A stretch of 64,000 bases of DNA, from positions 96,001-160,000 of the forward strand of contig JAEOUA010000006.1 of the NCBI GenBank assembly GCA_016839555.1, read 5' to 3'. The notes beneath the pieces were generated by a model. That model did not search any database. It was not told the origin of the DNA and saw only the letters and a list, made by a program, of their open reading frames with translations. Positions 40,335-58,423 of this stretch are shown here, piece by piece; position 1 is the first letter of the stretch; each line of letters begins with the position of its first letter. Source of the stretch: Promethearchaeota archaeon. GTDB lineage: Archaea > Asgardarchaeota > Lokiarchaeia > Sigyniarchaeales > SOKP01. A program made the position numbers and the translations under genes.

Positions 40335-42116
40335 TCAATCTTTAATTATTTGTCTCGCATTTTTCTTCCATTTATTAATGCTGGCAACACCTACTCTATA
40401 TATCTCCTTCGCTTTTAATTTTGCATTACAATTCAGCAAATCTTTTATTGTGTGAATACCCACCTCATTTAATTTTTCTTTATTTTTTGAACCAATTCCA
40501 GGCACATCTTCCAAATTATACTTATCTCCTTTAACTAAAAAGAGTTTGCCTTCTTCTTTTTCCTTTGTCTCTGGTTTCTCAGCTTCTACAGATGGTTCAG
40601 GCTTAATTTCAATTTCTGTGGGTTCCACTACTGCCTCCTCTACCTCTACGCGCTCATGTTCAATTATTTGCTCGAGATTGGAGGATTTAAAAGCATTAAA
40701 TTCGATATTGTTATCATCTAATACTTTTCTTGCATCATCTGTGATATTGTTCGGTGGAGTTATAAAGAACGCATAATCGCCCTTATCAGGATTATATTCC
40801 CGACCTTTCATTCGTAATAACCAATCAGCAAATTTCTCAACTTTCCTTTTAATACTTGAGCGTTGAATCATAGAGGCTTCTCCAAAGGCTTTTTTAACAT
40901 AATTAGAACGATGAGTGGGTGCCGTCGCATAAATATCTAGATTATAACCTCCAATTTTCTTTATATCGGGTTCCAAGTGGATAAACCCTTTGGATTTTAA
41001 TTTATCTTCCATAAATTCTCTCGCATCGCTTTCATAGATTTTTCGTATTTCATATTCTGTATGATATGTATAATCCATTGAATCAATAACATTTGCTATA
41101 CATTTCAATAACTCCCTCGGTAGATAATAATATAAGGACTCCTTAACCTTCCTGAAAAATATTTTTCTTTCTTTTCTTTTAAATCCTATTTTATCTGCAA
41201 CTTGAGTTATTATTGCTTCCTTTTCCTTGGGTGTCAGATTTCCCAATATTATTTCTTTATTTTCAATGATACTTTTGAAATTTTTACTCTGCTCTTTTAA
41301 ATTTGTCCATTCTTCTTTCTTGGGATTTTGTAAACATGAAAGAACCAGATATAATCTCTCATTCGAGAACTTTTCCATGAGATGACGGATAAAACTTTCT
41401 AAAATAAGCTTTAAAAGCACATTGGATTTGTCTATTTCATTTAAAAACTGAAGCTCATCAAACCCAATAGTAACTAAATAATTTTGGTCTAAAGCTAATT
41501 CTATAAATCCAAAAAATAAATCTCGTATCGTTTTTGAATTTATAATCCCCCCATAAAAATAATTTAACGCAATTTCTCGCTCCCCAGGATCTTTTAGAAT
41601 TAATTTAAGGAGGTGGTCAATTAATTGTTTATTTCGAAATTTTTGATTAAGTTCAAGCCTTCTTCTATGACTACTAATATTTTCGATTAATTCTGTTAAA
41701 ATATTATTTTCCTCGTCAATCAGTTGACTGATTAATTCTTGGACGAAAATATCCCAAAATTGGTCTTTATCCTCTGTGATTTCTTTAAAATCAAAAAATA
41801 AATATAGATTTCTTTCTGGAGCTATTTGATTTAATCGCTCTTGTACCTTAAACTTTAAGAGAGTTGTTTTCCCAGCTCCATTAGGTCCTATTACCGGGCG
41901 AATGGTTGTAATTTTAAGATTTTGAACGTTTAATAAATCTTGGCGAAAAATTTCGATGATTTGCTTCCCAATAAAGTTGGAACTTGCCTTGACTCCTTCA
42001 GACTCTTTTGAACTGAGTGGATGTTTCACTTCCCGCTCTATATATATCCAGTTTTGGGGGAATCCTTGCTCTAACCTCAGAATTCTCCTTCTCAATTTGT
42101 CTCTTGCAGATGAAAT
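40335..42116 (-). CDS. P-loop ATPase fused to a restriction-endonuclease-like domain and a C-terminal HhH (DUF4332/RadA-N-like) domain
   Basis: Walker A GPNGAGKT, Walker B IGFDE, LDIYA..FGEA, LEDVPGIG..KL..GI.TI.DL; probable ATT start at 42116 after GGAGCTGA. Confidence 0.75.
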   Translation of the reverse strand: MSSARDKLRRRILRLEQGFPQNWIYIEREVKHPLSSKESEGVKASSNFIGKQIIEIFRQDLLNVQNLKITTIRPVIGPNGAGKTTLLKFKVQERLNQIAPERNLYLFFDFKEITEDKDQFWDIFVQELISQLIDEENNILTELIENISSHRRRLELNQKFRNKQLIDHLLKLILKDPGEREIALNYFYGGIINSKTIRDLFFGFIELALDQNYLVTIGFDELQFLNEIDKSNVLLKLILESFIRHLMEKFSNERLYLVLSCLQNPKKEEWTNLKEQSKNFKSIIENKEIILGNLTPKEKEAIITQVADKIGFKRKERKIFFRKVKESLYYYLPRELLKCIANVIDSMDYTYHTEYEIRKIYESDAREFMEDKLKSKGFIHLEPDIKKIGGYNLDIYATAPTHRSNYVKKAFGEASMIQRSSIKRKVEKFADWLLRMKGREYNPDKGDYAFFITPPNNITDDARKVLDDNNIEFNAFKSSNLEQIIEHERVEVEEAVVEPTEIEIKPEPSVEAEKPETKEKEEGKLFLVKGDKYNLEDVPGIGSKNKEKLNEVGIHTIKDLLNCNAKLKAKEIYRVGVASINKWKKNARQIIKD

Positions 42117-42490
42117 GCTACATCAGCTCCTATTTTTGGGGTATGCTGGGGAAAAATCTCACTAATAGTCGGTCTTAATTTTTAATTCTCCTTTATATAT
42201 TATATATATCAACTAAATTTGTTTATAAACTTAAGTTTAAAATATTTTTTCTAAAGCTCTAATTATACCTTAAATTAAAATTTCATTTTATTAAATAACT
42301 TAAAATAATACTATGAAGAATATTCAATTGATAACAATTTTGGAATTTGGATAATATTAGATTTATTACCTTGATTTTGTTAAATTAATGATATTTAAAT
42401 ATCTTAATAATTTATAGTATTAACATAAATCTCAAAAATTTAGAATTTAAAAATAATTAGAAATTTTTTATAGCAGGATAGTGATTTAAT

Positions 42491-43255
42491 ATTAATTCTG
42501 ATCGAGACATTGTATTATTTTATTATTATTCCTCTCCAAGTTTTCCACAAGATTGTTTTTTAAATTTATCTAGGGATATTGCATATAGAAATATGTTTTT
42601 AACTAGATGTAATGATGGAAAAATACATTTCGAATTTCCAATATTTGAAGATCATTCCTATAATTCGATTTGCAATATACGTGGAGTGAGAAATCTTATA
42701 AAAAGAAAAATAAATAATAAGTACATACTCTTTAGAACAAGAGATCAAGATATTAATAAAAATTATATTATAGGATATTATAAAGTTGGTAAAATATATT
42801 TTCAAGAAACAAGAATGTTCAATAATAACGGTTTTGTGTGTGGATTTGAATCTTCTGAAACAAAACTCCTTAAAAAAGGTCAAATTATATATAATGACCC
42901 TACTTTTAGACGAGGACATAATGTATCATGGCATAAGAAAGAAATAAATAAAAAATTAAACAATTTTTTAGATATGATAATAAATATTAAAGACGATTAT
43001 AGTTCAATCTATAAGAATGATACAAATCGGATGATTGAAATATTTAAAGATAGAGAGAAAATTAATGAATGGAAAAATAAATGCCAAAATTGTAAAAAAA
43101 AGGAAGAATGTTTTTTCTTTAAATATAATGAAAAATATGATAAGAAACATGAAACTCAAAAAGATCTTTTTAAGTTAATATTTAATGTTTATGATTCTAA
43201 TATATATTCAAAAAATATTCTAGATAAAATTCAAAAAAAATATATATCGTGTTAA
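42491..43255 (+). CDS. Hypothetical protein, possible Nmad/PUA-like modified-base-associated domain
   Basis: P.FE..SY..C.IR...KYILFRT...YIIGYYKV pattern; C-terminal CQNCKKKEEC; frame open from 42485 with ATT at 42491. Confidence 0.5.
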   Translation: MNSDRDIVLFYYYSSPSFPQDCFLNLSRDIAYRNMFLTRCNDGKIHFEFPIFEDHSYNSICNIRGVRNLIKRKINNKYILFRTRDQDINKNYIIGYYKVGKIYFQETRMFNNNGFVCGFESSETKLLKKGQIIYNDPTFRRGHNVSWHKKEINKKLNNFLDMIINIKDDYSSIYKNDTNRMIEIFKDREKINEWKNKCQNCKKKEECFFFKYNEKYDKKHETQKDLFKLIFNVYDSNIYSKNILDKIQKKYISC

Positions 43256-43260
43256 AAATT

Positions 43261-43446
43261 ATGGGTTTAAAATGTCAGAAATGTGGTAATATATTAAGTG
43301 GATCTGATGGGCTTCACTTATTATCTAAATGTCCTAATTGCGGAAATAATGATATCAGTCTATTTATACGTGTAGATGATCAAGATATTGATCCAAAAAA
43401 ATATAAAAGAGATAAAGAGTGGTTAGAATCTCGATTAATAGATTAA
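43261..43446 (+). CDS. Small zinc-ribbon protein
   Basis: CQKCG...CPNCG; overlaps the radical SAM gene. Confidence 0.75.
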   Translation: MGLKCQKCGNILSGSDGLHLLSKCPNCGNNDISLFIRVDDQDIDPKKYKRDKEWLESRLID

Positions 43447-44528
43447 CTAATAATATAAAAGAATTAAGTATAGAGCTGACTCATAAGTGCGCATTAAATT
43501 GTGTTTATTGCAGTAGCGAGTCAAATTTAGAGAAGTCTACATTTCTTAATTTGAATAGAATAAAGAAAATTATTGAGGAAGTAATAGAAAAATTCAATCT
43601 AAAAATTATATCTCTCTCCGGAGGTGAAACATTTCTCTATCCCCACTTTAAAGAATTAATTAATTTTTTAAATGAGAAGGATTTAGAGGTTATAATTTAT
43701 ACATCCGGTATAATTCTCGATAATTCCTTGAATCGGAGAAGTTTATCAGAGGAAATTTTAAAAGTTCTCTCACCTTATAAAAAAAATACTAAAATCGTTT
43801 TAAATATTCAAGGACATAGCAAAGAATTAATAGAAAAAATAAATAAAGTACAAAATTCTTTTAATTTAATTCAGAATTCAATATTGAAATTAATAGATAA
43901 TAATTTTATTTTAGAAGCAAATATAGTGCCTTTTAAATATAATTATAAATATATTAAAGAAATCACAAATTTTTGTCTTCAAAAAGGTTTTAAAAAGATT
44001 AATTTTTTACGATTCGTCCCTCAAGGAAGAGGAAATAAAGAATATTTGTATAATAGTAAAAAAGAATTCAAAAAAGTAATTCAAGAACTAGTATCTCTAC
44101 TTAAAATTAAAAATATGAAAAATAAAATAAGAATTGGGCATCCAATGAATTTTTTATTCCTATTAAGTGAATCTAATTTATATGATATTGAAGAAAATCA
44201 TTATTGTAGAGGAGGTTTTGATGCTCCTTTAATTTTACCTAATGGAGACGTAAGTATGTGTCCAGCATGGAAAAACCTTAAACAATTTAGTGCTGGAAAC
44301 ATATACGATAAAAATTTCGAAGATATTTGGTTTTCTAAAAATTTTGAAATATTTCGTAATTTTATCAAACAAGGATATAAAAATCTCAAGGAACCTTGCC
44401 AAAATTGCAACTATTTAAATGAATGTAGAGGCAAGTGCGTTGCCCAAAGAATTTTAAGCAAAAATAGTGAATCGTGTGATTTAAAAAAAATAATTTTAAT
44501 TGCTCCTGATCCCCAATGCTTCAAATAA
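43419..44528 (+). CDS. Radical SAM enzyme with SPASM domain
   Basis: CALNCVYC, SGGE, then C.GG..PNGDV..CP..GNI..IW, CQNC.YLNECRGKC. Confidence 0.93.
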   Translation: MVRISINRLTNNIKELSIELTHKCALNCVYCSSESNLEKSTFLNLNRIKKIIEEVIEKFNLKIISLSGGETFLYPHFKELINFLNEKDLEVIIYTSGIILDNSLNRRSLSEEILKVLSPYKKNTKIVLNIQGHSKELIEKINKVQNSFNLIQNSILKLIDNNFILEANIVPFKYNYKYIKEITNFCLQKGFKKINFLRFVPQGRGNKEYLYNSKKEFKKVIQELVSLLKIKNMKNKIRIGHPMNFLFLLSESNLYDIEENHYCRGGFDAPLILPNGDVSMCPAWKNLKQFSAGNIYDKNFEDIWFSKNFEIFRNFIKQGYKNLKEPCQNCNYLNECRGKCVAQRILSKNSESCDLKKIILIAPDPQCFK

Positions 44529-44546
44529 TGTTTTAGGTATAATTTA

Positions 44547-45626
44547 ATGAATCTAAAAAAAATATTAAATAAATACTTTGAAAAAAGCCAATTGGCTTTC
44601 ATGAAAACAATACCATTTAAAAGACTTATTTTTGATAAAAGAGCAGAATATATGTGTAAATATGGTTGCAAAAATTATAATAGAAAATATTCTTGTCCTC
44701 CTTACACTAAATCTTTATTTAATTTAATAAATAAAAATAAATTCAAATGGGTTATATTATTTGCAACTTCATATAAAAATCTTAAAAATTATTCCCTGTT
44801 TAAAATAAGATTTGAAAACATTCAGAAGGAATATGAAATACAGCGAATTTCTCACCAATTAAGTAATCTCATAAATTTTAATGGAAAAAAGAATAAAGTT
44901 TTTTCTGGGGGATCTTGTAAAAGATGCAGACCATGTGGATGTATTGAAGACAAATTATGTAAAAAACCTCATTTAAAGCAAATTAGTATGGAATCTATTC
45001 AAATTGATTGTATAAAGACAATGACTAATGTTGGTTTCGATTTTCAATTAACTAATAATAATACCATAAATAGATGTGGTTGTATCTTTACAAATGATGA
45101 TTCTTTATCCAATATTGAGTTTAAGAAGAAAGATTCTCACCAAAAATTCGAACAATTTCCAAAAAGTAAGATACTTAAAAGTATTGAAAAATATAAAGAA
45201 AAAAATCCAAAACTTTATTCAAAAATTAATTTCTTTAATATTGATGAAATAAATAGAAAAGAAATACCAATTTGTAATGAGGAATGCAGGCATTATAATA
45301 GAAATTTTTCTTGTCCTCCTTATTCTGAATATATAAATTTAAATTTATGGACTTATGCTCTTGTTTGGAAATGGAAGAAGAATAAATATAAAAAATATAG
45401 ATATAATATTGCTTTAAAAAAAATTCATAAATTGGTATATTCAATGGGTTATTATTTCGCGCTTAGTATAAGAGATTGTTATTGTGATGAATGTGAAAGA
45501 TGTACATATAATTCAGGAAATAAATCATTTTGTGAAAATAGAAAAATTCTTTCACCCTCTATGCAATCATTGGGAATTGATCCAGAATTTTTTGGTAAAG
45601 GAAAATATGGTATTGAAATTTTTTAG
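44547..45626 (+). CDS. Tandem DUF2284-like cysteine-rich metal-binding protein
   Basis: Two repeats of C..YNR..SCPPY ... C..C..C ... C ... SM.S..ID. Confidence 0.8.
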   Translation: MNLKKILNKYFEKSQLAFMKTIPFKRLIFDKRAEYMCKYGCKNYNRKYSCPPYTKSLFNLINKNKFKWVILFATSYKNLKNYSLFKIRFENIQKEYEIQRISHQLSNLINFNGKKNKVFSGGSCKRCRPCGCIEDKLCKKPHLKQISMESIQIDCIKTMTNVGFDFQLTNNNTINRCGCIFTNDDSLSNIEFKKKDSHQKFEQFPKSKILKSIEKYKEKNPKLYSKINFFNIDEINRKEIPICNEECRHYNRNFSCPPYSEYINLNLWTYALVWKWKKNKYKKYRYNIALKKIHKLVYSMGYYFALSIRDCYCDECERCTYNSGNKSFCENRKILSPSMQSLGIDPEFFGKGKYGIEIF

Positions 45627-45637
45627 AAAATAGATCA

Positions 45638-47296
45638 ATGAATTCAATAGTTTTAAAAAATCAGGATATATTAATTAAAAAATTAGGGAAGATCTTTAAA
45701 TTAAAAAAGATTTCGAAATTTCTTTATAAAAAAAAAATTGGTATATTTATTCTTCTACTTCATATAAAAGCAAAAGATTGGCCATGGAAAAATCAAACTT
45801 TAAATAATGATCCAGTTAAAGAAATTCCATTATTATGGGGAATTGTTTATGCTCCAACAATAAAAAATATTGAAATTGTTTATAGTATACATCCAATTAA
45901 ATGTTTTCCAACTAATTATGAAAATAGAAATCAAAACTCAAAAAAAAATTCAATTGTTATTGAAAAAAATGATTTAGGTACATTGGGAGGATGTGCACGA
46001 TATTATATAGAACAAAGTGATCGTAAATATGATATATTTGAAAAAAATCCATTATATTGTTCAATTTTTGGATTACCAGATGACTGTTTTTCATTAGATT
46101 TTGAACAGAAAATGTTAGAAAAATTAAAAAATCTTAAAGAAATCACTTTTTGGTGCTATGATAAAAATGAATATATCTCTAAAAAAATTGAACCTCTTCT
46201 TAAATTAAATTATATGAAACAAAAATTCTTACCATCGGTTTATTTTCCTTTTGTTGATTCTCCTAGTAAATTTCTAAGAGGATTATTTAAAGCTAAAGAT
46301 TTGAGTTTTTTAAATAGTGAACCATGGTTCAATCAAGGATATGAACTGATAAAAAAAATGGACACAACTAAGGAGAATTCATATAGATATGAAGAAGAGG
46401 CAATATATTTTATAAAGAAAAAATTAGTATTTGAAGCGATCAGAGAACTATTGCTATTATATAATAAAAGTTCTTTTAAATCTTTTAAAATAGAGAAAAC
46501 TCCAAAATTAATCAATAATAAAAAGGAAAAATTTGAAAAAAATCTTTTTTATTTAAAAAATAAAGTAATCAGGGATAGAAAGAATAATATAGATAATTTT
46601 ATAAAATATAATAAGAATAATTTTGATTTTGAAAAATTTAAAAGATCACGATTTTTAGTTATAGATGTTGAGTATATCCATGTAGAATATCCAAAAAAGA
46701 ATTCAAATAGAACTTTTAATTTTCCGTCAATAATAACGAACATAATATGGCAAGGTGTTCGTAATGGAATAGATATAATTATAAATGTGTTAAAGTTGCC
46801 TTGTCATTTCTGTATAGAAAAAGATTGCGATGCTTTTCAAAAAAAAATTATTAAATTTGATTGTCTAGCTTATGCAGATAATTTATATGAAAAGCAAATA
46901 AAATTTCTGAATAATATGTTAATTCGATATGAAGGTTTTAAAATGTATTCATATGGAAAGAGTGACTTTTTTCAAATTGAACAATTAACAAATTTTTTTA
47001 CAAATTCTTGTGAAAGTCCAGAATTTCAAAGAAAAAACCGAAAGAGAGATAAACGTCTAATAGAGATTTTTGAAGATTTAGCAATAAAAGGTAAGAGTTT
47101 AAATGATGTTGAAAATGATGAAATCAAAAAAAGATTCCCAACTTGGAGGAGAAAAAAGAGTAAGATAAATGTTAATTCTAGGTTTATGACTAGATTTAAT
47201 TCAAGAAACTGGGATCTTCGATATAAAGAGGCTTTGGAAGCTTGTTTAGATGACACAATCTCTGCTTTCTTATTTTTAATAACCCAGCAGTTTTAA
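45638..47296 (+). CDS. Unknown N-terminal domain fused to a DEDD-type 3'-5' exonuclease-like domain
   Basis: ExoI FLVIDVE, ExoII SYGKSD, ExoIII-like ACLDDT near the C-terminus. Confidence 0.6.
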   Translation: MNSIVLKNQDILIKKLGKIFKLKKISKFLYKKKIGIFILLLHIKAKDWPWKNQTLNNDPVKEIPLLWGIVYAPTIKNIEIVYSIHPIKCFPTNYENRNQNSKKNSIVIEKNDLGTLGGCARYYIEQSDRKYDIFEKNPLYCSIFGLPDDCFSLDFEQKMLEKLKNLKEITFWCYDKNEYISKKIEPLLKLNYMKQKFLPSVYFPFVDSPSKFLRGLFKAKDLSFLNSEPWFNQGYELIKKMDTTKENSYRYEEEAIYFIKKKLVFEAIRELLLLYNKSSFKSFKIEKTPKLINNKKEKFEKNLFYLKNKVIRDRKNNIDNFIKYNKNNFDFEKFKRSRFLVIDVEYIHVEYPKKNSNRTFNFPSIITNIIWQGVRNGIDIIINVLKLPCHFCIEKDCDAFQKKIIKFDCLAYADNLYEKQIKFLNNMLIRYEGFKMYSYGKSDFFQIEQLTNFFTNSCESPEFQRKNRKRDKRLIEIFEDLAIKGKSLNDVENDEIKKRFPTWRRKKSKINVNSRFMTRFNSRNWDLRYKEALEACLDDTISAFLFLITQQF

Positions 47297-47462: not shown

Positions 47463-47708
47463 ATGTACTCTCTTGCTTCTTTATTTTTTAATAAAGTTGA
47501 AACTAAATATCATCGTGAAGATAAAATTCCTAATTATAAAGAAGAATTAAGTGAAGGTTGTCCAGGAGCTAATTTTTTTAACAAATTTATACCAGATCAA
47601 GTGGGATTTAGACGAATAGGAACAAAAGAAGAAAATCCAAATGATTCTAAAAATGTTAGAGAGAAATTTAAGGCTATTTTTGATGATTTTAAAACTACTA
47701 TAAGGTAG
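47463..47708 (+). CDS. Short hypothetical ORF or gene remnant
   Basis: 81 aa; upstream frames look disrupted. Confidence 0.35.
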   Translation: MYSLASLFFNKVETKYHREDKIPNYKEELSEGCPGANFFNKFIPDQVGFRRIGTKEENPNDSKNVREKFKAIFDDFKTTIR

Positions 47709-47891: not shown

Positions 47892-48752
47892 ATGGCTAGG
47901 ACAATTCAATATAATTTGAATGATGATTTCAGAAATTGTTTCAAATATTTATATGAAAAATTTGAAAAAAGAGCAAAAAATAAAAATATAAATATTAAAA
48001 ATACAAAATTCACTTATGAAGAATTGAGGGAATTAATTGACGAGTATTATTCAATGGTTAAAGATATTGAAAAAGAATCAAAAAAAGGAATTTTAAAACA
48101 ATTATCAACTCTGCTTGAAGTCAAAAAAATTAATAAGAATGGAGAATCTGTTTCGTATTATTACCTTAAACCTATAACAAATCTTTTTAGACTCTCTAAT
48201 AAAAAAATTGATAATGAGATTTTATATATAGGGCTATTATATTATAGTGAAGGGTTTAGTAATGCTATTAAAATTATATATAATTTACTTGGTCCAACTA
48301 GAAAATTAACTACAAACAAGATTAGATTTATAGGAAAAATTAAAGAAGTAATTACTAGGATCGAGAATTCTAAAAAAAAACCATTAAGCGCCACTAGCAT
48401 TAATAATATTGCAGAAAGAACAATTTCAAATTTAATTTATGTGGGATTAATCATTGATAACAAATTAGATAGAAGTTTAGAAGAGAATCAAATTAGAATC
48501 AAGAATTATTACCCCGATTTTAGAATACTATTAATTTTATATCTAAACGAATTAGAAGAAAAAAATCAAAATGCCCCTCCCTTAAATAACATAATTAATG
48601 AATACAATTTTGTTAAATTTTTTTTTCTTAATAAACAAAAACTAAAAAGAAGTTTAGAACCAGGATTTGAAAAAAATTTATTTTTTTATCAGCAGCAAAT
48701 TGGTTATGCCCTTAAAGTAAATTATGATCAATGGGAAATAAGTTTTAAATAG
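47892..48752 (+). CDS. brxA: BREX BrxA-like DNA-binding protein
   Basis: LSATSINNIAERTISNLIYVGLI and FFFLNKQKL..L..G..FFYQ resemble BrxA/DUF1819 motifs; first gene of the BREX operon. Confidence 0.6.
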   Translation: MARTIQYNLNDDFRNCFKYLYEKFEKRAKNKNINIKNTKFTYEELRELIDEYYSMVKDIEKESKKGILKQLSTLLEVKKINKNGESVSYYYLKPITNLFRLSNKKIDNEILYIGLLYYSEGFSNAIKIIYNLLGPTRKLTTNKIRFIGKIKEVITRIENSKKKPLSATSINNIAERTISNLIYVGLIIDNKLDRSLEENQIRIKNYYPDFRILLILYLNELEEKNQNAPPLNNIINEYNFVKFFFLNKQKLKRSLEPGFEKNLFFYQQQIGYALKVNYDQWEISFK

Positions 48753-48755
48753 ATC

Positions 48756-49427
48756 ATGACAATAACATTATTTGAAGAACAAAAGAAAGCTTTAAGAAAA
48801 ATAGAAAGTGCAATTGAATCTCCAAATCGTCGTACTTTAATTTTTATTTTCGGTGAAAAAGGAGTAGGAAAGACTAAAATAGCTAAAAAATTAAAAGAAA
48901 TTTATGTTGAAAATTTAAAAATTATTTCTATTAAAAATATCTTTTTAGATCAATATAGCAAATATAGTGAAGAAAAAATTCAAGAAAGATTCCTTTTAAA
49001 TAATTCTCCTGAGGAATTTTTAAATAAAATAATTTCAAGAGTTAAAAATAAGAAAATTTTGATAATAGATGGACTAGAATATTTATTGTCTAATTATTAT
49101 AAAGAACTAAATTTAAATATTGAATACGAGTTTGGAAAATATTCAAATTTTAATTATAATAATTCTCTGATATGGATACTTAATAAAAATCAATTTATGA
49201 AATATAGAGATTTTTGGGATAAAAATAATTCAATACTAAATAAGAGTATAATGATTAACGTTGAACTTCCTAGCAGAGGATCATTATATAGTTTTTTTAA
49301 TAAATTTAGAATATCTGAAAATGAAAATTTAACAAATGAAGAAATCAACCAATGTCTTCAAAATAATTATTTTAATACTTTAATAAAAATAAAAATTAAG
49401 AGTTTAGATATTAATGATGAAAATTAA
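48756..49427 (+). CDS. brxF: BrxF-like small P-loop protein
   Basis: IESAI..RTLIFIFGEKGVGKT, ILIIDGLEYL; 223 aa, directly upstream of brxC. Confidence 0.65.
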   Translation: MTITLFEEQKKALRKIESAIESPNRRTLIFIFGEKGVGKTKIAKKLKEIYVENLKIISIKNIFLDQYSKYSEEKIQERFLLNNSPEEFLNKIISRVKNKKILIIDGLEYLLSNYYKELNLNIEYEFGKYSNFNYNNSLIWILNKNQFMKYRDFWDKNNSILNKSIMINVELPSRGSLYSFFNKFRISENENLTNEEINQCLQNNYFNTLIKIKIKSLDINDEN

Positions 49428-52400
49428 AGATTTAATTGGAGAAATTAGAAAATTTAGCAAAGATGTTATAGACGTGAATGATTTTTATAGAATTAAAAAA
49501 TGGAACCAAGATCAATTAATAGAATATGTAGAAAATTATGACTTAAATAGAGAGGTCATAGATATATTCATAGAGTTTTTGGATTCGATTAATAAAAGGA
49601 TAAGTGATCCTACAAGAAAAGGATGCATTGATTTACAAGGCAATTTTGGTACTGGCAAATCACATATTTTTCTATTTTTTTCCTTATTATTAAGTGATAA
49701 CTATAATAATCAAATTAGGGATTTTGTTGATAAAAAAATAGAAGAAATAAAAAATAAAACCTTTAGAGAGAAATTGGAAAGATTTAAAGAACTAGAAAAT
49801 CAACCCATAGATGATTCCGATTTAACTGGAACATTATTTATTCCTATAAGGTTAACAGAATTTCGAGGAATGGAATTTGAAAAAATTATCGAATTAGCAG
49901 TAACAAAGTATATTTTAAAGACACCTGATACATTGATTTCTGAAATAAAAATTATTAAACATTTTTTTGAAACAAAGCAGAAAGATGTTTGTAATGAGTA
50001 TTTGGATCCAGAAGAATATGATAAATTCAAGCAAATTTATAATAAAATTGAAGAAGGCGAGGAAGTTAATTATAATATAATAATAAATTCAGCGCGCAAA
50101 ATAAATCAAGCTTTAGAAGATGCCATTAAAAGAACAACTGCTAAATCTGAAGATCCATTAGAAGATATATGTAAACATAAAAAATTAGGTAGAAAATATA
50201 AAAATATAATCTTTCTATTTGATGAATTAACTCAATGGTGGACAGATTCTACGGAAAATCTTTTAAAAATTTTACAAGGAGTTCTTGGAAAAATAAATCA
50301 ATGGCCTGTTAATGAGTTATATGATGATAAAAATGATCTAATTGAAAATAATAATATAATGGCTATTTTTGCTCATCAAAAAGAAATTTTTATTGGATCA
50401 ATAGGAAATACAGTTGAGAATAGATTTGAAAGAACTCTAACAATTAAGGGTGATTATATAGATAGTATTATATCTAAACGATTTTTCTATAAAGATCAAA
50501 TTAAAAAACAAGAAATTAAGAGAGTTGCAGAAAAACTATACGAAGATTTAAAACTTTTAGAAATTCCGGATGATATAATAAGAAAGATTTATTTAACAAA
50601 TCTATCTCCTAAAATTACAAAAATTAAAAATATTCAAGAAAAATTTGTTGCCAATATACAATCTTTCTATCCTTTTCATCCATATCTTTTTTCAACAATT
50701 ATGAAGCAAGTAATCAATAAATATTCAACTGAGGATAGAGGATTTTTAAACTTTGTCAATGATTGCTTCACAAAATACTCGACCCTATTAGAAAAAGAGG
50801 AAGATAATTTAATAAATATCGATAATTTTTTTGACATTTTTAATGAAATGAGACAATTATTCGTCAATAATGAAGATTTGGAAAATATCTATCATAGATT
50901 AGAAAAAGCAAGGAAAAAAAATAATCCGGAGGATATTTTTTCTGAAAAAGCTATTAAGACTTTAATTTTAAAATACCTAGGTGCCGTTGATCCTACGATA
51001 TCGGAAAAAGATTTAAGAGCAATATATATTATGAATGAGAAGCAATATAAAAAAATATTAGATTTTGTAGAATTTTGCATAATAGATGAAAATTTAAAGG
51101 ATATTAATTTTAATGACAATTATATTGAACTAACATTAAGTAGAACTGAACCAATTGATATATATATACAAAAAATAAAGAAACAAATTAATGAGGAACA
51201 TTGTTATAAATTTTTAAAAAAAAAACATGAAAATCTTAAACAAATAATAGATTTTTTACCTGAACAATCTAAAAATATAAGGCAAAAGAAATTAATTTTC
51301 TTTGAATATAATGATGAAATCGATACTTTAATTAAAATTATTCAAGATAAAAAAAATACAATAAATCCATTAACTGGAGAGTCTAATCAATATAAATTAA
51401 ATGTTTTAGATTTAATTTATTATTTTTTGCCTCCGAAACAAAAATTTCTTTCGGATCAATTCGATCCAAAAATAGAGATCATTAATAAAATTAAAAATGA
51501 AAACATAGCATTTATCATTTGTAAACCAATGAAGGAAATGATAAAATTTTCTAAATATAATGTAATTAGACAGAACATTAGCTTGAATATACTTAAGTGG
51601 ATATTTGATAATATTAATGAAATTAAAGAAAGAAATCCAGAAAATTTATATAAAGAATATTTTCAAGAGGAAAAAATTCCTGTGCCTAATTATTCTGAAA
51701 TCTCTGATGTAATTATTAATTTGTCAAATAAAAATCCCTCTATTATTGATAATCTTCAAATGCAGAATGATAATAAATTAAATGAATTAACGGAGTTAGA
51801 TAATTATGATCTAGAAGAATGGTATGATAATCACAAATGCTTTTATAAATTTGATGAAATTAAAGAGATTGTTTATAATGATTCAAATATAAAAATTATT
51901 GAAAATGAATTAGAATCATTTAAATACCCTAAATCTATAAAATTAAGTAAGCCAATAGCAGGTACAGAATCTGATAAGATATGGGATGCTTTGTTTAAAG
52001 AAAGAGAAGAGGTTGTTAAAACTGATTCAGCAAAATATAAACATTTAAAAATTGGTGTAGAAGATTTAAAATTATTAAAACTTAATAGAACGCATTTTTC
52101 CCTTCAAGAAGTATCAAAAATACACCCATCATATAAAAAATTCGAAAATTTTATTGATGAATTAGATAATAAAAAGGAAATTTTAGAATTTTGTTTTAAA
52201 TTTAGAATAAATGAATATGGAATGTCGATTTATCAAAGTATTTTAGGATTATTCTATTTCCATCAAAAAGGAAAAATCAAATTCTATGATAAAAATAATA
52301 ATGCTTTAAATACCCGTAGCAAATCTGGAAATAAACCCATATTTGGTTCTACAAATTATTTCTTAAGAAAATTAGTAGACCAAAATGGAAAATTTGGAAA

Positions 52401-52878
52401 AGTTGAAATAATCTCTCCAGAAAACTGGGAATTCATAATTAATAAATTAATTTCTTTTAGAGATACAAATATTGTAAAATTTGATGAAAATTATAATGAT
52501 GGATCTAAAATAGATTTAATCACTCTTAAAGAGAGTCAATCATTAGATAGAGAAAGAAAACTTTTTGAAATAATTCAAAATCATATTTCATTAGAAAATA
52601 TTGAAAGTTTAATAAATCAAATTACTGTATTTTTAGCGAAACTTGATTTAGAAAATAATGAAAGTGTTAAAAAAAAATTAAAATTGTTTCAACTTATGAA
52701 TATGTTTAATCAAATTAAAGAATTAAATGAAATTGAACATCTTTATGATTTTTTATCGAATAATGATAAAAAATTTAGTAAAGTTCTTGAAAAATATAAA
52801 ATCCTTAGAGACTTTTCTAAAGATAAATTAAATAAAATAGAAAATATAATAAATTTATGCCGAAATCTAAAAATATAG
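49414..52878 (+). CDS. brxC: BrxC/PglY-like large ATPase, N-terminal part
   Basis: GNFGTGKSH Walker A, FLFDEL Walker B, RF, YPFHP, R sensor motifs. Confidence 0.85.
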   Translation: MMKIKDLIGEIRKFSKDVIDVNDFYRIKKWNQDQLIEYVENYDLNREVIDIFIEFLDSINKRISDPTRKGCIDLQGNFGTGKSHIFLFFSLLLSDNYNNQIRDFVDKKIEEIKNKTFREKLERFKELENQPIDDSDLTGTLFIPIRLTEFRGMEFEKIIELAVTKYILKTPDTLISEIKIIKHFFETKQKDVCNEYLDPEEYDKFKQIYNKIEEGEEVNYNIIINSARKINQALEDAIKRTTAKSEDPLEDICKHKKLGRKYKNIIFLFDELTQWWTDSTENLLKILQGVLGKINQWPVNELYDDKNDLIENNNIMAIFAHQKEIFIGSIGNTVENRFERTLTIKGDYIDSIISKRFFYKDQIKKQEIKRVAEKLYEDLKLLEIPDDIIRKIYLTNLSPKITKIKNIQEKFVANIQSFYPFHPYLFSTIMKQVINKYSTEDRGFLNFVNDCFTKYSTLLEKEEDNLINIDNFFDIFNEMRQLFVNNEDLENIYHRLEKARKKNNPEDIFSEKAIKTLILKYLGAVDPTISEKDLRAIYIMNEKQYKKILDFVEFCIIDENLKDINFNDNYIELTLSRTEPIDIYIQKIKKQINEEHCYKFLKKKHENLKQIIDFLPEQSKNIRQKKLIFFEYNDEIDTLIKIIQDKKNTINPLTGESNQYKLNVLDLIYYFLPPKQKFLSDQFDPKIEIINKIKNENIAFIICKPMKEMIKFSKYNVIRQNISLNILKWIFDNINEIKERNPENLYKEYFQEEKIPVPNYSEISDVIINLSNKNPSIIDNLQMQNDNKLNELTELDNYDLEEWYDNHKCFYKFDEIKEIVYNDSNIKIIENELESFKYPKSIKLSKPIAGTESDKIWDALFKEREEVVKTDSAKYKHLKIGVEDLKLLKLNRTHFSLQEVSKIHPSYKKFENFIDELDNKKEILEFCFKFRINEYGMSIYQSILGLFYFHQKGKIKFYDKNNNALNTRSKSGNKPIFGSTNYFLRKLVDQNGKFGKVEIISPENWEFIINKLISFRDTNIVKFDENYNDGSKIDLITLKESQSLDRERKLFEIIQNHISLENIESLINQITVFLAKLDLENNESVKKKLKLFQLMNMFNQIKELNEIEHLYDFLSNNDKKFSKVLEKYKILRDFSKDKLNKIENIINLCRNLKI

Positions 52879-52885
52879 TGATTTT

Positions 52886-53692
52886 ATGAATCGAGAACAT
52901 TTATTAATATTAAAAGAAAATATATTATCTTTTTTAGAGAATGAAAATTTAGATTATTTCTGGGATGAGGAAAAGTATAATAAGATTTTAGAGGATTTTA
53001 ATCTGTTACAAAAAAATTTTATAAATTTATATACAGAAATACATAAAAAACGAAATAAAAAGTTAGAAGATCTTAGGGATAAACTAAAATCTAATATTAC
53101 TTGGAATTTTCTACGTGAATTAATTGAAAAAGATACTGAACTTAAAAAATATTTTAATAAAAAATATTCTATTGATAAAATATCCTCCCAATTAAAAAAT
53201 ATTTGCAGCAAAGAAGCGAATGAGTTAAATACTATTGATCTTAGGAATTATGGATTTTGTCAAGATTGTAAAAAGAGTATAGAAGAACTCAAAAACATTA
53301 TTAATTTCGATGAAGAAAAAATAAAGGAAGAATTTGAAAATAAAATAATAAAAATTATGGAATCTGAAAAAGATCAAGCAGTCTTTGGGAAAAAATTACT
53401 CGAAAAATACAACGATATAGAAGAGGTTACCAATAAAGTAAAAAAATTAAGTGATTTTTATGATAAGTTGAAAAAAGAAGAAAAAACGGATTTTCTTGAA
53501 ATATTAAAAAAATTATTGGGGGAAATGAAAATAAAAGTTATAAATATAGAAACAATAATAAATTCATTAAAAGATCGGAAAATTCAATTTCACAGTGTTG
53601 TAGAATTTTTAGATTCTTTTGAGGATGAATTTAATAAATATAAGAAAGAAAATTCAGACAAAAATATTGAATGGATTTTAAAAATAGAATAG
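52886..53692 (+). CDS. Probable C-terminal part of BrxC (coiled coil with a Cys cluster), in the +1 frame
   Basis: Y..IH, C..(x)..FCQDC pattern typical of BrxC C-termini; removing one A from the A5 run at 52869-52873 fuses it to brxC. Confidence 0.65.
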   Translation: MNREHLLILKENILSFLENENLDYFWDEEKYNKILEDFNLLQKNFINLYTEIHKKRNKKLEDLRDKLKSNITWNFLRELIEKDTELKKYFNKKYSIDKISSQLKNICSKEANELNTIDLRNYGFCQDCKKSIEELKNIINFDEEKIKEEFENKIIKIMESEKDQAVFGKKLLEKYNDIEEVTNKVKKLSDFYDKLKKEEKTDFLEILKKLLGEMKIKVINIETIINSLKDRKIQFHSVVEFLDSFEDEFNKYKKENSDKNIEWILKIE

Positions 53693-53699
53693 CAAAAAA

Positions 53700-56600: not shown

Positions 56601-56963
56601 TTAGATAATGATATAATAAAAGGAAAAACTTACAATTTTACAATTAGAATTAGAAATCCTAATCCATTCAAAATAAGTAATATAGATATATATTTAGAAG
56701 GATCTAATAATTCAAAGTTTAGAGTATATAAAAATGGAGAAGAAATTGAAAGAGTTAAATTCTCTATTTTAAATGCTAATGAAGAGAAATTTAAAAATAT
56801 CACAATAATTTTTTCTGAAAAATCAAAATTTAATTTTGAGCTAAAAGGAAATTTTAGCTTGCCAAATTTACAACGCAACAGATTTAAAGGAAGGAATTTA
56901 TTATCAATAGATGTTTTTGCTTCTGAAGATGACTTAAATCGTCAAAGAAGCTTCCACATATAA
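53700..56963 (+). CDS. pglZ: PglZ alkaline-phosphatase-superfamily protein with C-terminal beta-sandwich domains
   Basis: IIIDCLRID, LLPSISKISR, VTSDHGF, HGGISFYENIVP. Confidence 0.9.
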   Translation: MNNEEEFISSRIIKSLINIRNNNISNYKSFYFLIEDKNGFLEEIEIPKKLNYFNRDFSIYKINYKNRLEIDKNNLFEDIIKNGFCIILFKYGRENLKNKFEDLNIDILDFSILKSILDLLDIEVDKKLESEINKYSQDFGKKEFFKNYYESIQYFLNNSQKFDIIANNKIDDFFTALILFFGNRFFFSNYYKKLIGKFRSDSNRRVLFETGKAYELIELIFNLKEDYDSQLISNCFKFIKETKNKEFQEVLNIVILIVKDKKNHQNFLKHIFLINLFQLKCGRGTFSLNQSDLDLFNRKSDYTLNEIFDTINQFCTFSDNYLELLYKPEFKDFLKKKYIKDFEKSYEKKDPNFKKKFLDSITKENLFIPQNEIFLFEKSYNRWIDVLFNVLFDDLINEIYKKIKINDFNFGNISKTIKDYQQNLSLMENFYYYENRDKTIINNLLDIMFYSIYIFESLNKNKNNTLEFWIKSKIINNIFNIERKYREIRKIFVMLDKKHPFYDVLNRKFHKKIPTLDFIEFVINFTLDKFFSVIKKNYSRELLNEHNKINFTKDVFRSLNTDDKKKNFIVIIIDCLRIDFWDLIWKDLLYKFNLKSIKKEKIYSLLPSISKISRESIYCNNFVSKILTENQIIECLEQFFNEDQINIIKYSGDKEIIVGDLQEKLKINKKLNLVISTFPDIRIHKIEKVKELYNENNYNQIKDEIKDHIESIFRSIFNEIKELGPKKDDYEIFVTSDHGFIDYYKKLDINNLRYQNLSDENLRKRYIKVNEKIHLNNEKIKNNIYYLEIFNDKKDSYYLTHGRYYFSKGKSKSKTMLGHGGISFYENIVPFYSFKPIKTTRSKYKPNLIWDSKDLYLSSENQLLFSLINEDQNYSLNIKSVKIYNSNNILIFNKEFSEEEGILPSLDTSQKYKFHYMSNNERFELKFEILYSFVNFEGNETDTELEAGSKKFDQIIVKNPEVQLEQNLDNDIIKGKTYNFTIRIRNPNPFKISNIDIYLEGSNNSKFRVYKNGEEIERVKFSILNANEEKFKNITIIFSEKSKFNFELKGNFSLPNLQRNRFKGRNLLSIDVFASEDDLNRQRSFHI

Positions 56964-56978
56964 TTATTATTTTAAAAG

Positions 56979-58409: not shown

Positions 58410-58423
58410 ATTAGAATTTTTAT

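What the first reader, a model, noticed from the sequence alone, without database searches (positions are those of the whole stretch)
42491..47296. Metal-rich five-gene operon upstream of BREX
Seen: five closely spaced or overlapping genes encode an Nmad/PUA-like protein, a Zn ribbon, a radical SAM-SPASM enzyme, a double DUF2284 and a DEDD fusion. Four of them are Cys-rich. The rSAM is not QueE-like or viperin-like because it has a full SPASM domain. Inference: this is either a nucleobase hypermodification and reader module serving the adjacent TGT/BREX, or a stand-alone defence unit in which the SPASM enzyme modifies the small Zn-ribbon protein.
Basis: inference. Interest (0 to 1): 0.7.

Follow-up and report, generated by a model that had tools for sequence, protein, structure and literature searches.

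The report
Archaeal radical-SAM, base-reader, exonuclease cassette
These five genes form a rare, mobile and undescribed gene cassette of Asgard and other archaea. It combines a radical-chemistry enzyme pair with a modified-base reader and a DNA-trimming nuclease, works independently of the neighbouring BREX system, and is most likely a new nucleic-acid-directed antiviral module.

Summary
Five tightly packed + strand genes encode:
- A, a PUA-like (YTH/EVE/ASCH fold) protein with a Cys cluster
- B, a 61-aa Zn ribbon
- C, a radical SAM/SPASM enzyme
- D, a tandem DUF2284 protein
- E, a 552-aa protein ending in a DEDD 3'-5' exonuclease

The same five genes recur together, almost always in the order A-B-C-D-E, in every fetched contig that is long enough. 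More than 20 distinct loci carry them: Asgard lineages, a Thermoplasmata MAG, and Methanosarcinaceae by a source name.

The set is very patchy, with strong hits in 3 of 400 Asgard species genomes. Its GC is below that of its flanks. It usually sits among restriction, TIR, HEPN, Schlafen-helicase and transposase genes. No other locus carries BREX or TGT genes, so it is a stand-alone cassette and not a BREX accessory.

The closest outside relatives of the radical SAM enzyme sit in operons with thymidylate-kinase-like, APH-kinase, Nmad2, Nmad3, Nmad1-like and 5-hmdU-DNA-kinase genes. That points to a nucleotide or nucleobase substrate rather than the Zn-ribbon peptide. A and E have no Pfam family. 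An exhaustive profile search of 1.84 billion representative proteins found only E's own family.

The mechanism is inferred, not shown. Another first-stage note in this scan flagged the same operon in a different genome.

The parts
42481..42493 (+). Irregular 5' end of gene A. GTG (42481-83) is one base out of frame, an in-frame TGA lies at 42482-84, and ATT lies at 42491.
   Evidence: Sequence read. Homologues start M-x-N-I-N-x-D-R-D-I-V-L-F. The window gives this reading only if one T of the run at 42485-87 is dropped. This is either an assembly indel or a real frameshift; reads were not available to decide.
42491..43255 (+). Gene A, about 254-257 aa. It has a PUA-like beta-barrel (residues 1-176, YTH/EVE/ASCH-type fold) with the invariant motif HFEFPxFEDHSYN, followed by a helical C-terminal domain with invariant CxxCx5C (C198, C201, C207). 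C22 and C61 are also invariant.
   Evidence: 73 homologues cover 97-100% of the 254-aa reading. Alignment. AF2 pLDDT 88.5. VIA-align gives YTH Z 7.4/7.0/6.9, ASCH 5.9, McrB-N 5.3 and THYN1 4.6. Foldseek top rows are THYN1 and YTHDF. No Pfam, NCBIfam, PADLOC or PHROG hit.
43261..43446 (+). Gene B, 61 aa. It is a four-Cys Zn ribbon with invariant H19, an acidic stretch (RVDDxDID) and a C-terminal KEWLES helix motif.
   Evidence: Alignment of 29 homologues: C5, C8, H19, C24, C27, F35 and L55 are invariant, while the Trp position varies (W/Y/F/L/E). Zn-ribbon Pfam and NCBIfam hits are all below their cut-offs.
43419..44528 (+). Gene C, 369 aa. It is a radical SAM enzyme with a full SPASM domain. 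The family signatures FLRFVPQGRG, CPAWK and PDPxC are present.
   Evidence: Pfam Radical_SAM 7.7e-21 and SPASM 3.9e-12. All NCBIfam equivalogs score far below their cut-offs: MftC 91 vs 265, PqqE 78.6 vs 381. Invariant Cys. Tree.
44547..45626 (+). Gene D, 359 aa. It is two DUF2284 repeats, each with the invariant pattern Cx3Cx8CPP plus CxxCxxCx7-9C. D is probably a multi-[4Fe-4S] partner of C.
   Evidence: Pfam DUF2284 5.5e-36 in 2 stretches. The two matches score 90.8 and 41.6 bits. Alignment. No relative by sequence in the PDB.
45638..47296 (+). Gene E, 552 aa. The N-terminal domain (about 1-290) has an unassigned fold with conserved Cys (C89, C119, C141, C150) and the motif FGLPDDC. A long helix follows. 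The C-terminal DEDD 3'-5' exonuclease domain (336-552) has a Cys4 insert (C389, C392, C397, C409).
   Evidence: AF2 pLDDT 83. VIA-align gives PolB exonuclease domains Z 12.7-10.3, MrfB 11.3 and DnaQ 8.8. Foldseek finds HSV polymerase exonuclease, DnaQ, RNase T and CRN-4. D343, E345, D443, E448 and D539 are invariant. Only 37 representatives were found in 1.84 billion proteins, all of the same family.

Best explanation
The five genes form one self-contained, horizontally mobile cassette built from two modules.

Module 1 is C plus D. C is a radical SAM/SPASM enzyme and D is a dedicated multi-Fe-S DUF2284 protein. I infer that this pair carries out SAM-dependent radical chemistry on a nucleotide, or on a base within DNA or RNA. 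D would serve as electron conduit or substrate platform.

Module 2 is A, B and E, and handles the polynucleotide. A is a PUA-like reader that would bind, and probably flip out, the altered or hypermodified base. B is a small Zn-ribbon subunit. E is a DEDD 3'-5' exonuclease that would degrade or trim the marked strand.

The cassette most likely acts in virus or mobile-element conflict, as a restriction-like 'recognise or convert a base, then degrade' system. It works independently of the neighbouring BREX-like and TGT-like genes.

What is shown: gene linkage, domain and fold assignments, catalytic residues, patchy mobile distribution, defence-island context, and the nucleotide-enzyme partners of the sister radical SAM enzymes.

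What is inferred: the substrate, the direction of information flow between the two modules, and the antiviral role.
For: Linkage. A-B-C-D-E occurs complete and in order in every contig long enough: L005, L006, L007, L010, L012, L022, L029, L030, L035, L040, L050, L051, L054, L055, L057 and L060.

Two modules. Rearranged loci keep A-B-E together with C on the other strand (L059, L031), or keep B-E and C-D as separate blocks (L003).

Interchangeable partners. In the C tree, the rearranged cassettes fall in a sister clade (support 0.90). The radical SAM enzymes closest to them sit in two kinds of operon: thymidylate-kinase-like / radical SAM / DUF2284 / APH kinase, and Nmad3 / radical SAM fused to an Nmad1-like domain / TylF methyltransferase / HMUDK. 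A more distant relative lies in TIR-Nmad2-HMUDK-radical SAM on a Parabacteroides plasmid. The same radical SAM lineage therefore swaps A-B-E for nucleotide-directed enzymes.

Active parts. C has the complete CX3CX2C motif and the SPASM Cys set. E keeps all four DEDD acidic residues and has a PolB-type exonuclease fold (Z 12.7). The fold matches of A are all modified-base or RNA-binding PUA-like domains.

Conflict-system features. Strong hits occur in only 3 of 400 Asgard species genomes. E has no homologue in 60 relatives. The cassette occurs across phyla: Promethearchaeota, Borrarchaeota and Thermoplasmata MAGs, and Methanosarcinaceae and Helarchaeota by source names. Cassette GC is below flank GC in 12 of 12 loci. 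Decayed or IS-disrupted copies exist (L027, L061). Flanks carry type I HsdR, HNH/type IV REase, BglII, GIY-YIG, Mrr, PDDEXK_7/DUF2357, TIR, HEPN_Swt1, HmaC/DUF499, MazG-like plus Schlafen helicase, NERD, integrase and IS605.

Cellular, not viral. No copy was found in IMG/VR for A or E, none in GenBank phages for C, and none in PHROGs for A, D or E.
Against:
- Guilt by association with defence islands is imperfect. In L007 the cassette lies between sulfur-relay/ThiI and hemerythrin/MscS genes. In L002 an E homologue stands alone among translation genes.
- The PUA-like assignment of A rests on modest Z scores (7.4 or less), and a binding pocket was not examined.
- The folds of D and of the N-terminal half of E are unassigned.
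- Kinase partners in one sister cassette point to free nucleotides, whereas A and E point to polynucleotides. The substrate class (free versus polymer) is therefore unresolved.
- SPASM enzymes often act on peptides, and a small conserved protein (B) is present.
- Gene A may be frameshifted at its start in this genome, so this particular copy might be impaired.
Confidence: 0.5

Rival explanations
1. Nucleotide-analogue immunity on the logic of viperin or oxetanocin. C and D would convert a free (d)NTP or NMP into a polymerase-poisoning analogue. E, with a proofreading-type exonuclease, and A would protect the host's own 3' ends by recognising and removing the incorporated analogue. Alternatively, they would supply mononucleotides.
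For: Sister radical SAM enzymes are operonic with thymidylate-kinase-like and APH kinases and with an Nmad1/MazG-like fusion, all of which act on free nucleotides. MazG-like genes flank the cassette in L003 and L050. The best PADLOC hit of C is pVip, at 4e-12 over the radical SAM core only. The closest folds to E are polymerase proofreading domains.
Against: The cassette itself contains no kinase or phosphohydrolase. C has a SPASM domain where viperin has its nucleotide-binding C-terminal extension. The self-protection role of A and E is pure inference.
Confidence: 0.17
2. Peptide or protein maturation. C, a SPASM enzyme with D as reductant, would post-translationally modify the Zn-ribbon protein B or another cassette protein. 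The modified protein would then act as cofactor, regulator or effector.
For: The best NCBIfam matches of C are the peptide maturases MftC and PqqE and the WgkB type. B is small, always present, and translationally coupled to C in the canonical order.
Against: All those matches score far below their family cut-offs. No RRE/PqqD-like domain was detected in A, B, D or E. B is conserved over its full length with a folded Zn ribbon, and its one aromatic candidate site varies (W/Y/F/L/E). In L003, L031 and L059, B stays next to E and apart from C. Sister radical SAM enzymes have no B.
Confidence: 0.12
3. DNA or RNA repair, or housekeeping modification. Here the radical SAM enzyme would reverse or install a base lesion or modification (as SPL, or tRNA-modifying radical SAM enzymes, do). 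A would recognise the lesion and E would process the ends, with no role in conflict.
For: A base-recognition fold, a radical enzyme and a 3'-5' exonuclease together form a plausible repair set. L007 and L002 have housekeeping flanks.
Against: The cassette is present in under 1% of Asgard species genomes and absent from close relatives. Its GC is lower than that of its flanks. It is disrupted by IS insertion and decay. Its neighbourhoods are mostly defence or mobile.
Confidence: 0.1
4. Accessory of the adjacent BREX-like and TGT-like (DpdA-type) genes. The cassette would make or read the DNA mark that those systems use.
For: In this window the cassette ends 596 bp upstream of the PglZ/BrxL cluster and about 12 kb from a TGT-like gene.
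Against: No homologue of the window's PglZ, BrxL, BrxC-like, TGT-like or neighbouring genes occurs in any of 73 related loci. The cassette occurs with many unrelated neighbours.
Confidence: 0.03

Closest known systems
Nucleotide-modification cassettes with Nmad/HMUDK genes (thymidine hypermodification pathways, PMC8989533; the DefensePredictor system with 5-hmdU kinase and NMAD domains, PMC13092281)
   Same: The sister and cousin clades of radical SAM enzyme C sit in Nmad3 / radical SAM-Nmad1-like / TylF / HMUDK operons and in TIR-Nmad2-HMUDK-radical SAM operons. HMUDK_hel and Nmad3 genes also lie next to the cassette in L059 and L012.
   Different: The cassette itself has no HMUDK, Nmad, kinase or aGPT-Pplase gene. 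A is not detectably an Nmad protein. The radical SAM isomerase of phage M6 (gp53) is SPL-like according to PMC8989533, whereas C carries a SPASM domain.
Modification-dependent (type IV) restriction enzymes with PUA-like readers (EVE, YTH, ASCH, SRA, McrB-N; PMC7641849, PMC6765204)
   Same: A has the PUA-like barrel of these readers and is genetically coupled to a nuclease (E).
   Different: The nuclease is a DEDD 3'-5' exonuclease on a separate polypeptide, not an HNH, PD-(D/E)XK or GTPase-coupled endonuclease. A carries an extra Cys-cluster helical domain. A radical SAM/Fe-S pair is an obligatory part of the set.
Prokaryotic viperins (pVips) and other radical SAM defence systems (for example Ophion, bioRxiv 10.1101/2025.09.30.679545)
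   Same: A radical SAM enzyme sits in defence islands, and relatives are linked to nucleotide kinases. The pVip models are the only PADLOC hit of C.
   Different: The hit covers only the radical SAM core. C has a full SPASM domain with two auxiliary cluster motifs. The partner proteins differ: DUF2284, a PUA-like reader and a DEDD exonuclease, rather than kinases or PHP/PRTase.
SPASM peptide and cofactor maturases (MftC, PqqE, NirJ/AhbD, anSME)
   Same: The domain architecture is the same, radical SAM plus SPASM. These are the best-scoring NCBIfam and PDB relatives (PqqE 6c8v at 4e-07).
   Different: Scores are a quarter to a third of the family cut-offs. No RRE partner is present. The genomic partners are nucleic-acid proteins.
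Proofreading-type DEDD exonucleases (archaeal PolB exonuclease domain, DnaQ, MrfB, Cap18)
   Same: The fold and the four acidic residues of residues 336-552 of E match.
   Different: E has no polymerase domains. It has a Cys4 insert and a 290-residue N-terminal domain of unassigned fold. No canonical H or Y lies 4-5 residues before the last Asp.

Membership tests
Radical SAM superfamily | CX3CX2C motif binding the SAM cluster; Pfam PF04055 above its cut-off | tested here: met
   PF04055 scores 75.4 bits against a cut-off of 29.5. C24, C28 and C31 are invariant in 21 sequences.
SPASM subgroup of radical SAM enzymes | C-terminal seven-Cys motif for two auxiliary [4Fe-4S] clusters; PF13186/TIGR04085 | tested here: met
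   PF13186 scores 46.7 bits against 21.5 and TIGR04085 scores 50.9 against 27. C263, C281, C327, C330, C336, C340 and C367 are invariant.
Viperin / pVip | Viperin-specific C-terminal nucleotide-binding extension instead of auxiliary clusters; full-length match to pVip models | tested here: not met
   The pVip models match only residues 18-230, the core. Residues 263-367 are a SPASM domain. Viperin 6b4c matches at E 8.9e-4 over residues 19-127 only.
PqqE / MftC peptide-cofactor maturases | Score above the equivalog cut-off; partner RRE chaperone (PqqD/MftB) and short precursor peptide in the operon | tested here: not met
   MftC scores 91 against 265 and PqqE 78.6 against 381. No PqqD-type hit was found in A, B, D or E. 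B is a folded Zn ribbon conserved over its full length.
DUF2284 (PF10050) | Pfam match above the cut-off; Cys-rich metal-binding motifs | tested here: met
   124.2 bits against a cut-off of 25, in two stretches. The two repeats score 90.8 and 41.6 bits. There are 14 invariant Cys.
DEDD 3'-5' exonuclease superfamily | RNase H-like exonuclease fold with the four acidic residues of motifs ExoI (DxE), ExoII (D) and ExoIII (D) | tested here: met
   PolB exonuclease domain 5mdn_B: Z 12.7, rmsd 2.7, 157 residues aligned. D343, E345, D443 and D539 are invariant.
DEDDh or DEDDy subtype | His or Tyr 4-5 residues before the ExoIII Asp | tested here: inconclusive
   Positions -4 and -5 from D539 are Ala and Glu. 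A conserved Tyr lies at -10. Its position in the model's active site was not examined.
PUA-like modified-base readers (YTH/EVE/ASCH/SRA) | PUA-like beta-barrel fold | tested here: met
   All top VIA-align and Foldseek rows belong to this group: YTH Z 7.4, rmsd 3.4, 124 aligned; ASCH 5.9; McrB-N 5.3; THYN1 4.6. The Z values are modest.
PUA-like modified-base readers (YTH/EVE/ASCH/SRA) | Aromatic or hydrophobic cage that accommodates a flipped modified base | not testable with these tools
Many invariant aromatics exist (Y12, F47, F49, F52, Y57, F110, F115, W147), but their geometry was not examined.
Nmad (nucleotide modification associated) domains | Match to Pfam Nmad1-5 models or a profile match to members | tested here: inconclusive
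   A has no Pfam hit at E <= 0.01. hhalign of the A profile against one Nmad2 and two Nmad3 proteins gives probability 0.1-1.4%. The templates were single sequences, and no fold comparison was made.
BREX system component | Conserved co-occurrence with PglZ/BrxC/BrxL-type genes | tested here: not met
   No homologue of the window's BREX-like or TGT-like proteins occurs in 73 related loci (526 kb).

The most novel reading that the evidence does not exclude
This would be the first restriction-like immune system in which a radical SAM/SPASM enzyme acts directly on bases in polynucleotides. It would either strip or convert viral DNA hypermodifications, or write a radical-derived mark. A dedicated PUA-like reader and a proofreading-type exonuclease would then turn that chemical event into degradation of the invader. 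The cassette would have arisen in, and spread among, Asgard and other anaerobic archaea.
Probability: 0.25. Interest if true: 0.85.

Novelty: new variant of a known kind. Interest (0 to 1): 0.62.

Why it matters
Radical SAM enzymes known in immunity (viperins, and recently Ophion) act on free nucleotides or remain poorly understood. Only two radical SAM enzymes are reported to act on DNA: SPL and phage M6 gp53 (PMC8989533).

This cassette hard-wires a SPASM radical enzyme and a large Fe-S partner to a modified-base reader and an exonuclease. That makes it a concrete, testable entry point into radical chemistry on nucleic acids in host-virus conflict.

It also defines two orphan protein families (A and E). 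It gives DUF2284 a recurring functional partner. And it adds an apparently archaeal-specific candidate to the Asgard defence repertoire.

Tried and rejected
Complex prediction. Complex prediction was run with A, E and B, with B as the partner (after five failed attempts to reach the machine). The verdict was 'no answer': the score was 0.45, and a control with E replaced scored 0.51. This is neither support for nor evidence against binding.

Fold limits.

N-terminal half of E. It was not covered by the fold-search rows. Language-model features gave only sub-0.9 leads to Arena_ncap_C and Rv2179c-like exonucleases. hhalign of the N half against the C half of E was not significant (probability 0.7%). 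The idea of a duplicated, inactivated DEDD domain therefore remains a guess based on the order of secondary-structure elements.

Searches that found nothing:
- Sequence and profile searches of A, D and E against PDB sequences.
- PADLOC, NCBIfam and PHROGs for A, D and E.
- Literature searches: no description of the cassette, and DUF2284 appears only in lists.

Other checks. The 317-aa neighbour of the lone E homologue in L002 is not A-like. The 81-aa ORF at 47463-47708 and the small ORFs that follow E elsewhere are not conserved. The second DUF2284 gene of this genome lies next to an EamA transporter and a Ras-like GTPase and gave no functional clue.

Full report
**What is there**

Between a 390-bp AT-rich spacer and the BREX-like cluster, the + strand carries five tightly packed genes.

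| Gene | Coordinates | Size |
|---|---|---|
| A | 42491-43255 | about 254 aa |
| B | 43261-43446 | 61 aa |
| C | 43419-44528 | 369 aa |
| D | 44547-45626 | 359 aa |
| E | 45638-47296 | 552 aa |

B and C overlap by 28 nt. The C-D gap is 18 nt and the D-E gap is 11 nt.

- **C.** Pfam confirms a radical SAM core (7.7e-21) followed by a SPASM domain (3.9e-12).
- **D.** Pfam finds two DUF2284 repeats (5.5e-36, two stretches).
- **B.** B gives only sub-threshold Zn-ribbon hits, but its four Cys are invariant in 29 homologues.
- **A and E.** Neither has a Pfam, NCBIfam, PADLOC or PHROG match.

**Gene A**

The first ATG (42593) would give 220 aa. However, 73 homologues align over 97-100% of the longer 254-aa reading. 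The extra 34 residues contain invariant positions Y12, C22, R33 and N34.

No canonical start codon precedes this conserved region in frame. The codon at 42491 is ATT, and an in-frame TGA lies at 42482-84. A GTG at 42481-83 is one base out of frame. Dropping one T of the run at 42485-87 gives M-I-N-I-N-S-D-R-D-I-V-L-F, which matches the homologues' N-termini. This is either an assembly indel or a genuine frameshift.

An AF2 model built from 38 sequences has pLDDT 88.5. Residues 1-176 match only PUA-like modified-base or RNA-binding domains:

- YTH: 6fpx, Z 7.4, rmsd 3.4, 124 residues aligned
- ASCH: Z 5.9
- PH1033: Z 5.8
- McrB-N: Z 5.3
- THYN1/EVE: Z 4.6
- SRA

The Z values are modest but the list is coherent. 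The C-terminal part is helical and carries an invariant CxxCx5C motif. The motif HFEFPxFEDHSYN is also invariant.

The label 'Nmad' is not supported. There is no Pfam hit, and hhalign against Nmad2 and Nmad3 proteins gives probability 1.4% or less.

**Gene E**

The AF2 model has pLDDT 83. Residues 336-552 form a DEDD 3'-5' exonuclease domain. The closest matches are the proofreading domains of family B polymerases (Pyrobaculum PolB, Z 12.7, rmsd 2.7), followed by MrfB, DnaQ, RNase T, ERI2 and Cap18.

D343 and E345 (motif RFLVxDVEY), D443 (YGKSD) and D539 are invariant. The exonuclease is therefore probably active. A Cys4 insert (C389, C392, C397, C409) and a Cys-rich N-terminal domain of about 290 residues have no assigned fold.

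An exhaustive profile search of 1.84 billion representative proteins found 37 hits, all from the same family.

**Genes C and D**

C has CX3CX2C (C24, C28, C31) and the full SPASM Cys set, all invariant. It also has distinctive motifs shared with its wider clade: FLRFVPQGRG, CPAWK and PDPxC. All curated NCBIfam equivalogs (MftC, NirJ2, PqqE, AhbD and others) score far below their cut-offs. The PADLOC pVip hit covers the radical SAM core only.

Each DUF2284 repeat of D has invariant Cx3Cx8CPP and ferredoxin-like CxxCxxCx7-9C(K/R)xP motifs. I infer that D binds several Fe-S clusters. No structure-by-sequence relative exists in the PDB.

**Linkage**

E has 19 homologues in the 5.8-billion-protein word-index search. 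Contig look-ups, a genome scan and a metagenome scan were mapped by tblastn.

Every contig long enough carries A-B-C-D-E in that order. This holds for 16 distinct loci. A further 20 or so shorter contigs end within the cassette in the expected order.

Exceptions are few and informative:

- **L059 and L031** have A-B-E. In L059, C lies on the opposite strand and no D was found.
- **L003** has B-E, A on the other strand, then C-D.
- **L027** is a decayed copy: C and E are frameshifted and D is absent.
- **L061** has C disrupted by an IS element with a 310-aa transposase-like ORF.
- **L002** has an E homologue alone.

The cassette therefore behaves as two modules, [A, B, E] and [C, D].

**Distribution and context**

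- The A profile gives strong matches in 3 of 400 Asgard species genomes. Two further matches are marginal.
- E has no match in 60 close relatives of this genome.
- Named records are Promethearchaeota, Borrarchaeota and Thermoplasmata MAGs. Source names add Helarchaeota, Methanosarcinaceae and Hodarchaeales.
- The cassette has lower GC than its flanks in 12 of 12 loci, and flank GC ranges from 25 to 56%.
- No copy was found in IMG/VR or in GenBank phages.

Flanks differ from locus to locus. They include type I HsdR, an HNH/type IV enzyme, BglII, GIY-YIG, Mrr, PDDEXK_7 with DUF2357, TIR proteins, HEPN_Swt1, AAA_15/21, HmaC/DUF499, MazG-like with Schlafen-type helicase, NERD, Nmad3, HMUDK_hel, an integrase and an IS605 OrfB. 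Housekeeping flanks also occur (L007).

None of the 73 loci (526 kb) has a homologue of the window's PglZ, BrxL, BrxC-like or TGT-like genes. The cassette is therefore not a BREX or TGT accessory.

**What the radical SAM lineage is otherwise used for**

A tree of 121 C-family sequences (FastTree) places the canonical cassettes in one clade (support 0.995 when a small basal group is included). A sister clade (support 0.90) contains the two rearranged cassettes (L003, L059) together with bacterial enzymes from two other operon types:

- **(i)** thymidylate-kinase-like (3.4e-20) / radical SAM-SPASM / single DUF2284 (27.7 bits) / APH-family kinase
- **(ii)** Nmad3 / radical SAM-SPASM fused to an all-alpha domain / TylF-type methyltransferase / HMUDK_hel, from gut metagenomes. 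In one member the fused domain weakly matches DUF1599/Nmad1, at E 0.005, below the cut-off.

A more distant relative (29% identity) lies in a TIR-Nmad2-HMUDK_hel-radical SAM-unknown operon on a Parabacteroides plasmid.

The same enzyme lineage, often with DUF2284, is thus combined either with nucleotide-directed enzymes or with the A-B-E module. This is the main reason to prefer a nucleotide or nucleobase substrate over a peptide.

Earlier AI notes of this scan had suggested that radical SAM/DUF2284 pairs recur with HD or dUTPase-like partners. I used that only as a lead and tested it through the calls above.

**The Zn-ribbon protein B**

B is conserved end to end: MGxKCxKC...LH...KCPxCGN...FxRVDDEDID...KEWLES. 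The only aromatic residue in the tail varies (W/Y/F/L/E). It has no hypervariable core, and no RRE partner was detected. In rearranged loci B stays with A or E.

The complex prediction gave no verdict and is not used as evidence.

**Most likely mechanism (inference)**

- C, reduced through D, performs radical chemistry on a base or nucleotide.
- A binds the altered or hypermodified base.
- E, possibly positioned by A and B, degrades the strand from its 3' end.

Whether C acts before A (marking or converting invader bases) or after A (acting on a base that A presents) is open. So is whether free nucleotides are the true substrate. The rival readings are nucleotide-analogue production with exonuclease self-protection, maturation of B, repair, and BREX accessory. 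They are listed with their odds in the Rival explanations section.

**Comparison with known systems**

The cassette shares its logic with three known groups: type IV restriction (a PUA-like reader plus a nuclease), viperin and Ophion-type radical SAM defence, and Nmad/HMUDK nucleotide-modification cassettes. It fails the membership tests for viperin, PqqE/MftC and BREX.

I found no description of it in the searched literature. Another first-stage note in this scan flagged the same five-gene operon in a different genome (e1-5565142).

**Verdict**

The link to BREX is rejected. The cassette is a stand-alone, mobile, probably defensive module acting on nucleic acids. Its composition is new, and its chemistry is unknown but testable.

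Noticed in passing
window 42481-42493: Gene A lacks an in-frame canonical start. GTG at 42481 is one base out of frame, and removing one T of the run at 42485-87 restores an N-terminus like that of the homologues. This is either an assembly indel or a real frameshift that may impair this copy.
   Followed up: partly
L069-L072 (gut metagenome contigs), e.g. L069:655-5528: A bacterial operon reads Nmad3 / radical SAM-SPASM fused to an all-alpha C-terminal domain (weak DUF1599/Nmad1 match) / TylF-type methyltransferase / HMUDK_hel. Its radical SAM part is 39% identical to C. It looks like an undescribed nucleotide- or DNA-modification cassette.
   Followed up: partly
L073:7387-10594 and L074: A four-gene bacterial cassette reads thymidylate-kinase-like / radical SAM-SPASM (39% identical to C) / single DUF2284 / APH-family kinase. 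The kinase and radical SAM genes overlap.
   Followed up: partly
L075 (Parabacteroides distasonis plasmid NZ_OY725812.1, 45648-50806): An operon reads hypothetical / TIR / Nmad2 / HMUDK_hel / radical SAM-SPASM / 521-aa unknown, next to an integrase. The radical SAM enzyme is a distant cousin of C (29% identity).
   Followed up: partly
L061:4587-5627: The radical SAM gene of this cassette copy is split by an insertion of about 1 kb. The insertion encodes a 310-aa transposase-like ORF on the opposite strand, so an IS element has inactivated the gene.
   Followed up: partly
L027:10001-13613: This is a decaying cassette copy. C and E each carry a frameshift, and D is missing.
   Followed up: no
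L010:8286-9821, L054:8351-9847, L029:6122-7576 (and a 475-aa gene between B and C on the contig of P0013): The three proteins of 484-511 aa in L010, L054 and L029 are homologous to one another, have no Pfam or PADLOC match, and lie directly beside the cassette in those three independent loci. They may be an optional sixth component. A gene of similar size (475 aa) is inserted inside a fourth cassette, but no DNA was available to test whether it belongs to the same family.
   Followed up: partly
window 40335-42095 (- strand): A 586-aa protein has an NPHP3_N/NACHT-type P-loop and a C-terminal helix-hairpin-helix. It is divergent from the cassette and has no PADLOC match. It may be a STAND-type defence NTPase.
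   Followed up: no
window 47892-59008: The BREX-like cluster (286 aa unknown, 223-aa AAA, 1154-aa weak BrxC/SspC, 268 aa unknown, PglZ, BrxL, 194 aa unknown) has no recognisable PglX methyltransferase inside the operon.
   Followed up: no
G000 contig C10:389253-389768 (L076): A second, single-domain DUF2284 gene of this genome lies between an EamA-type transporter gene and a Ras-family small GTPase gene.
   Followed up: partly
L002:3701-6362: An E homologue (515 aa, lacking the first ~40 residues) occurs without A-D. It is preceded by an unrelated 317-aa protein of unknown family and sits among SepRS, TYW1-like, ArgRS and eRF1 genes.
   Followed up: partly
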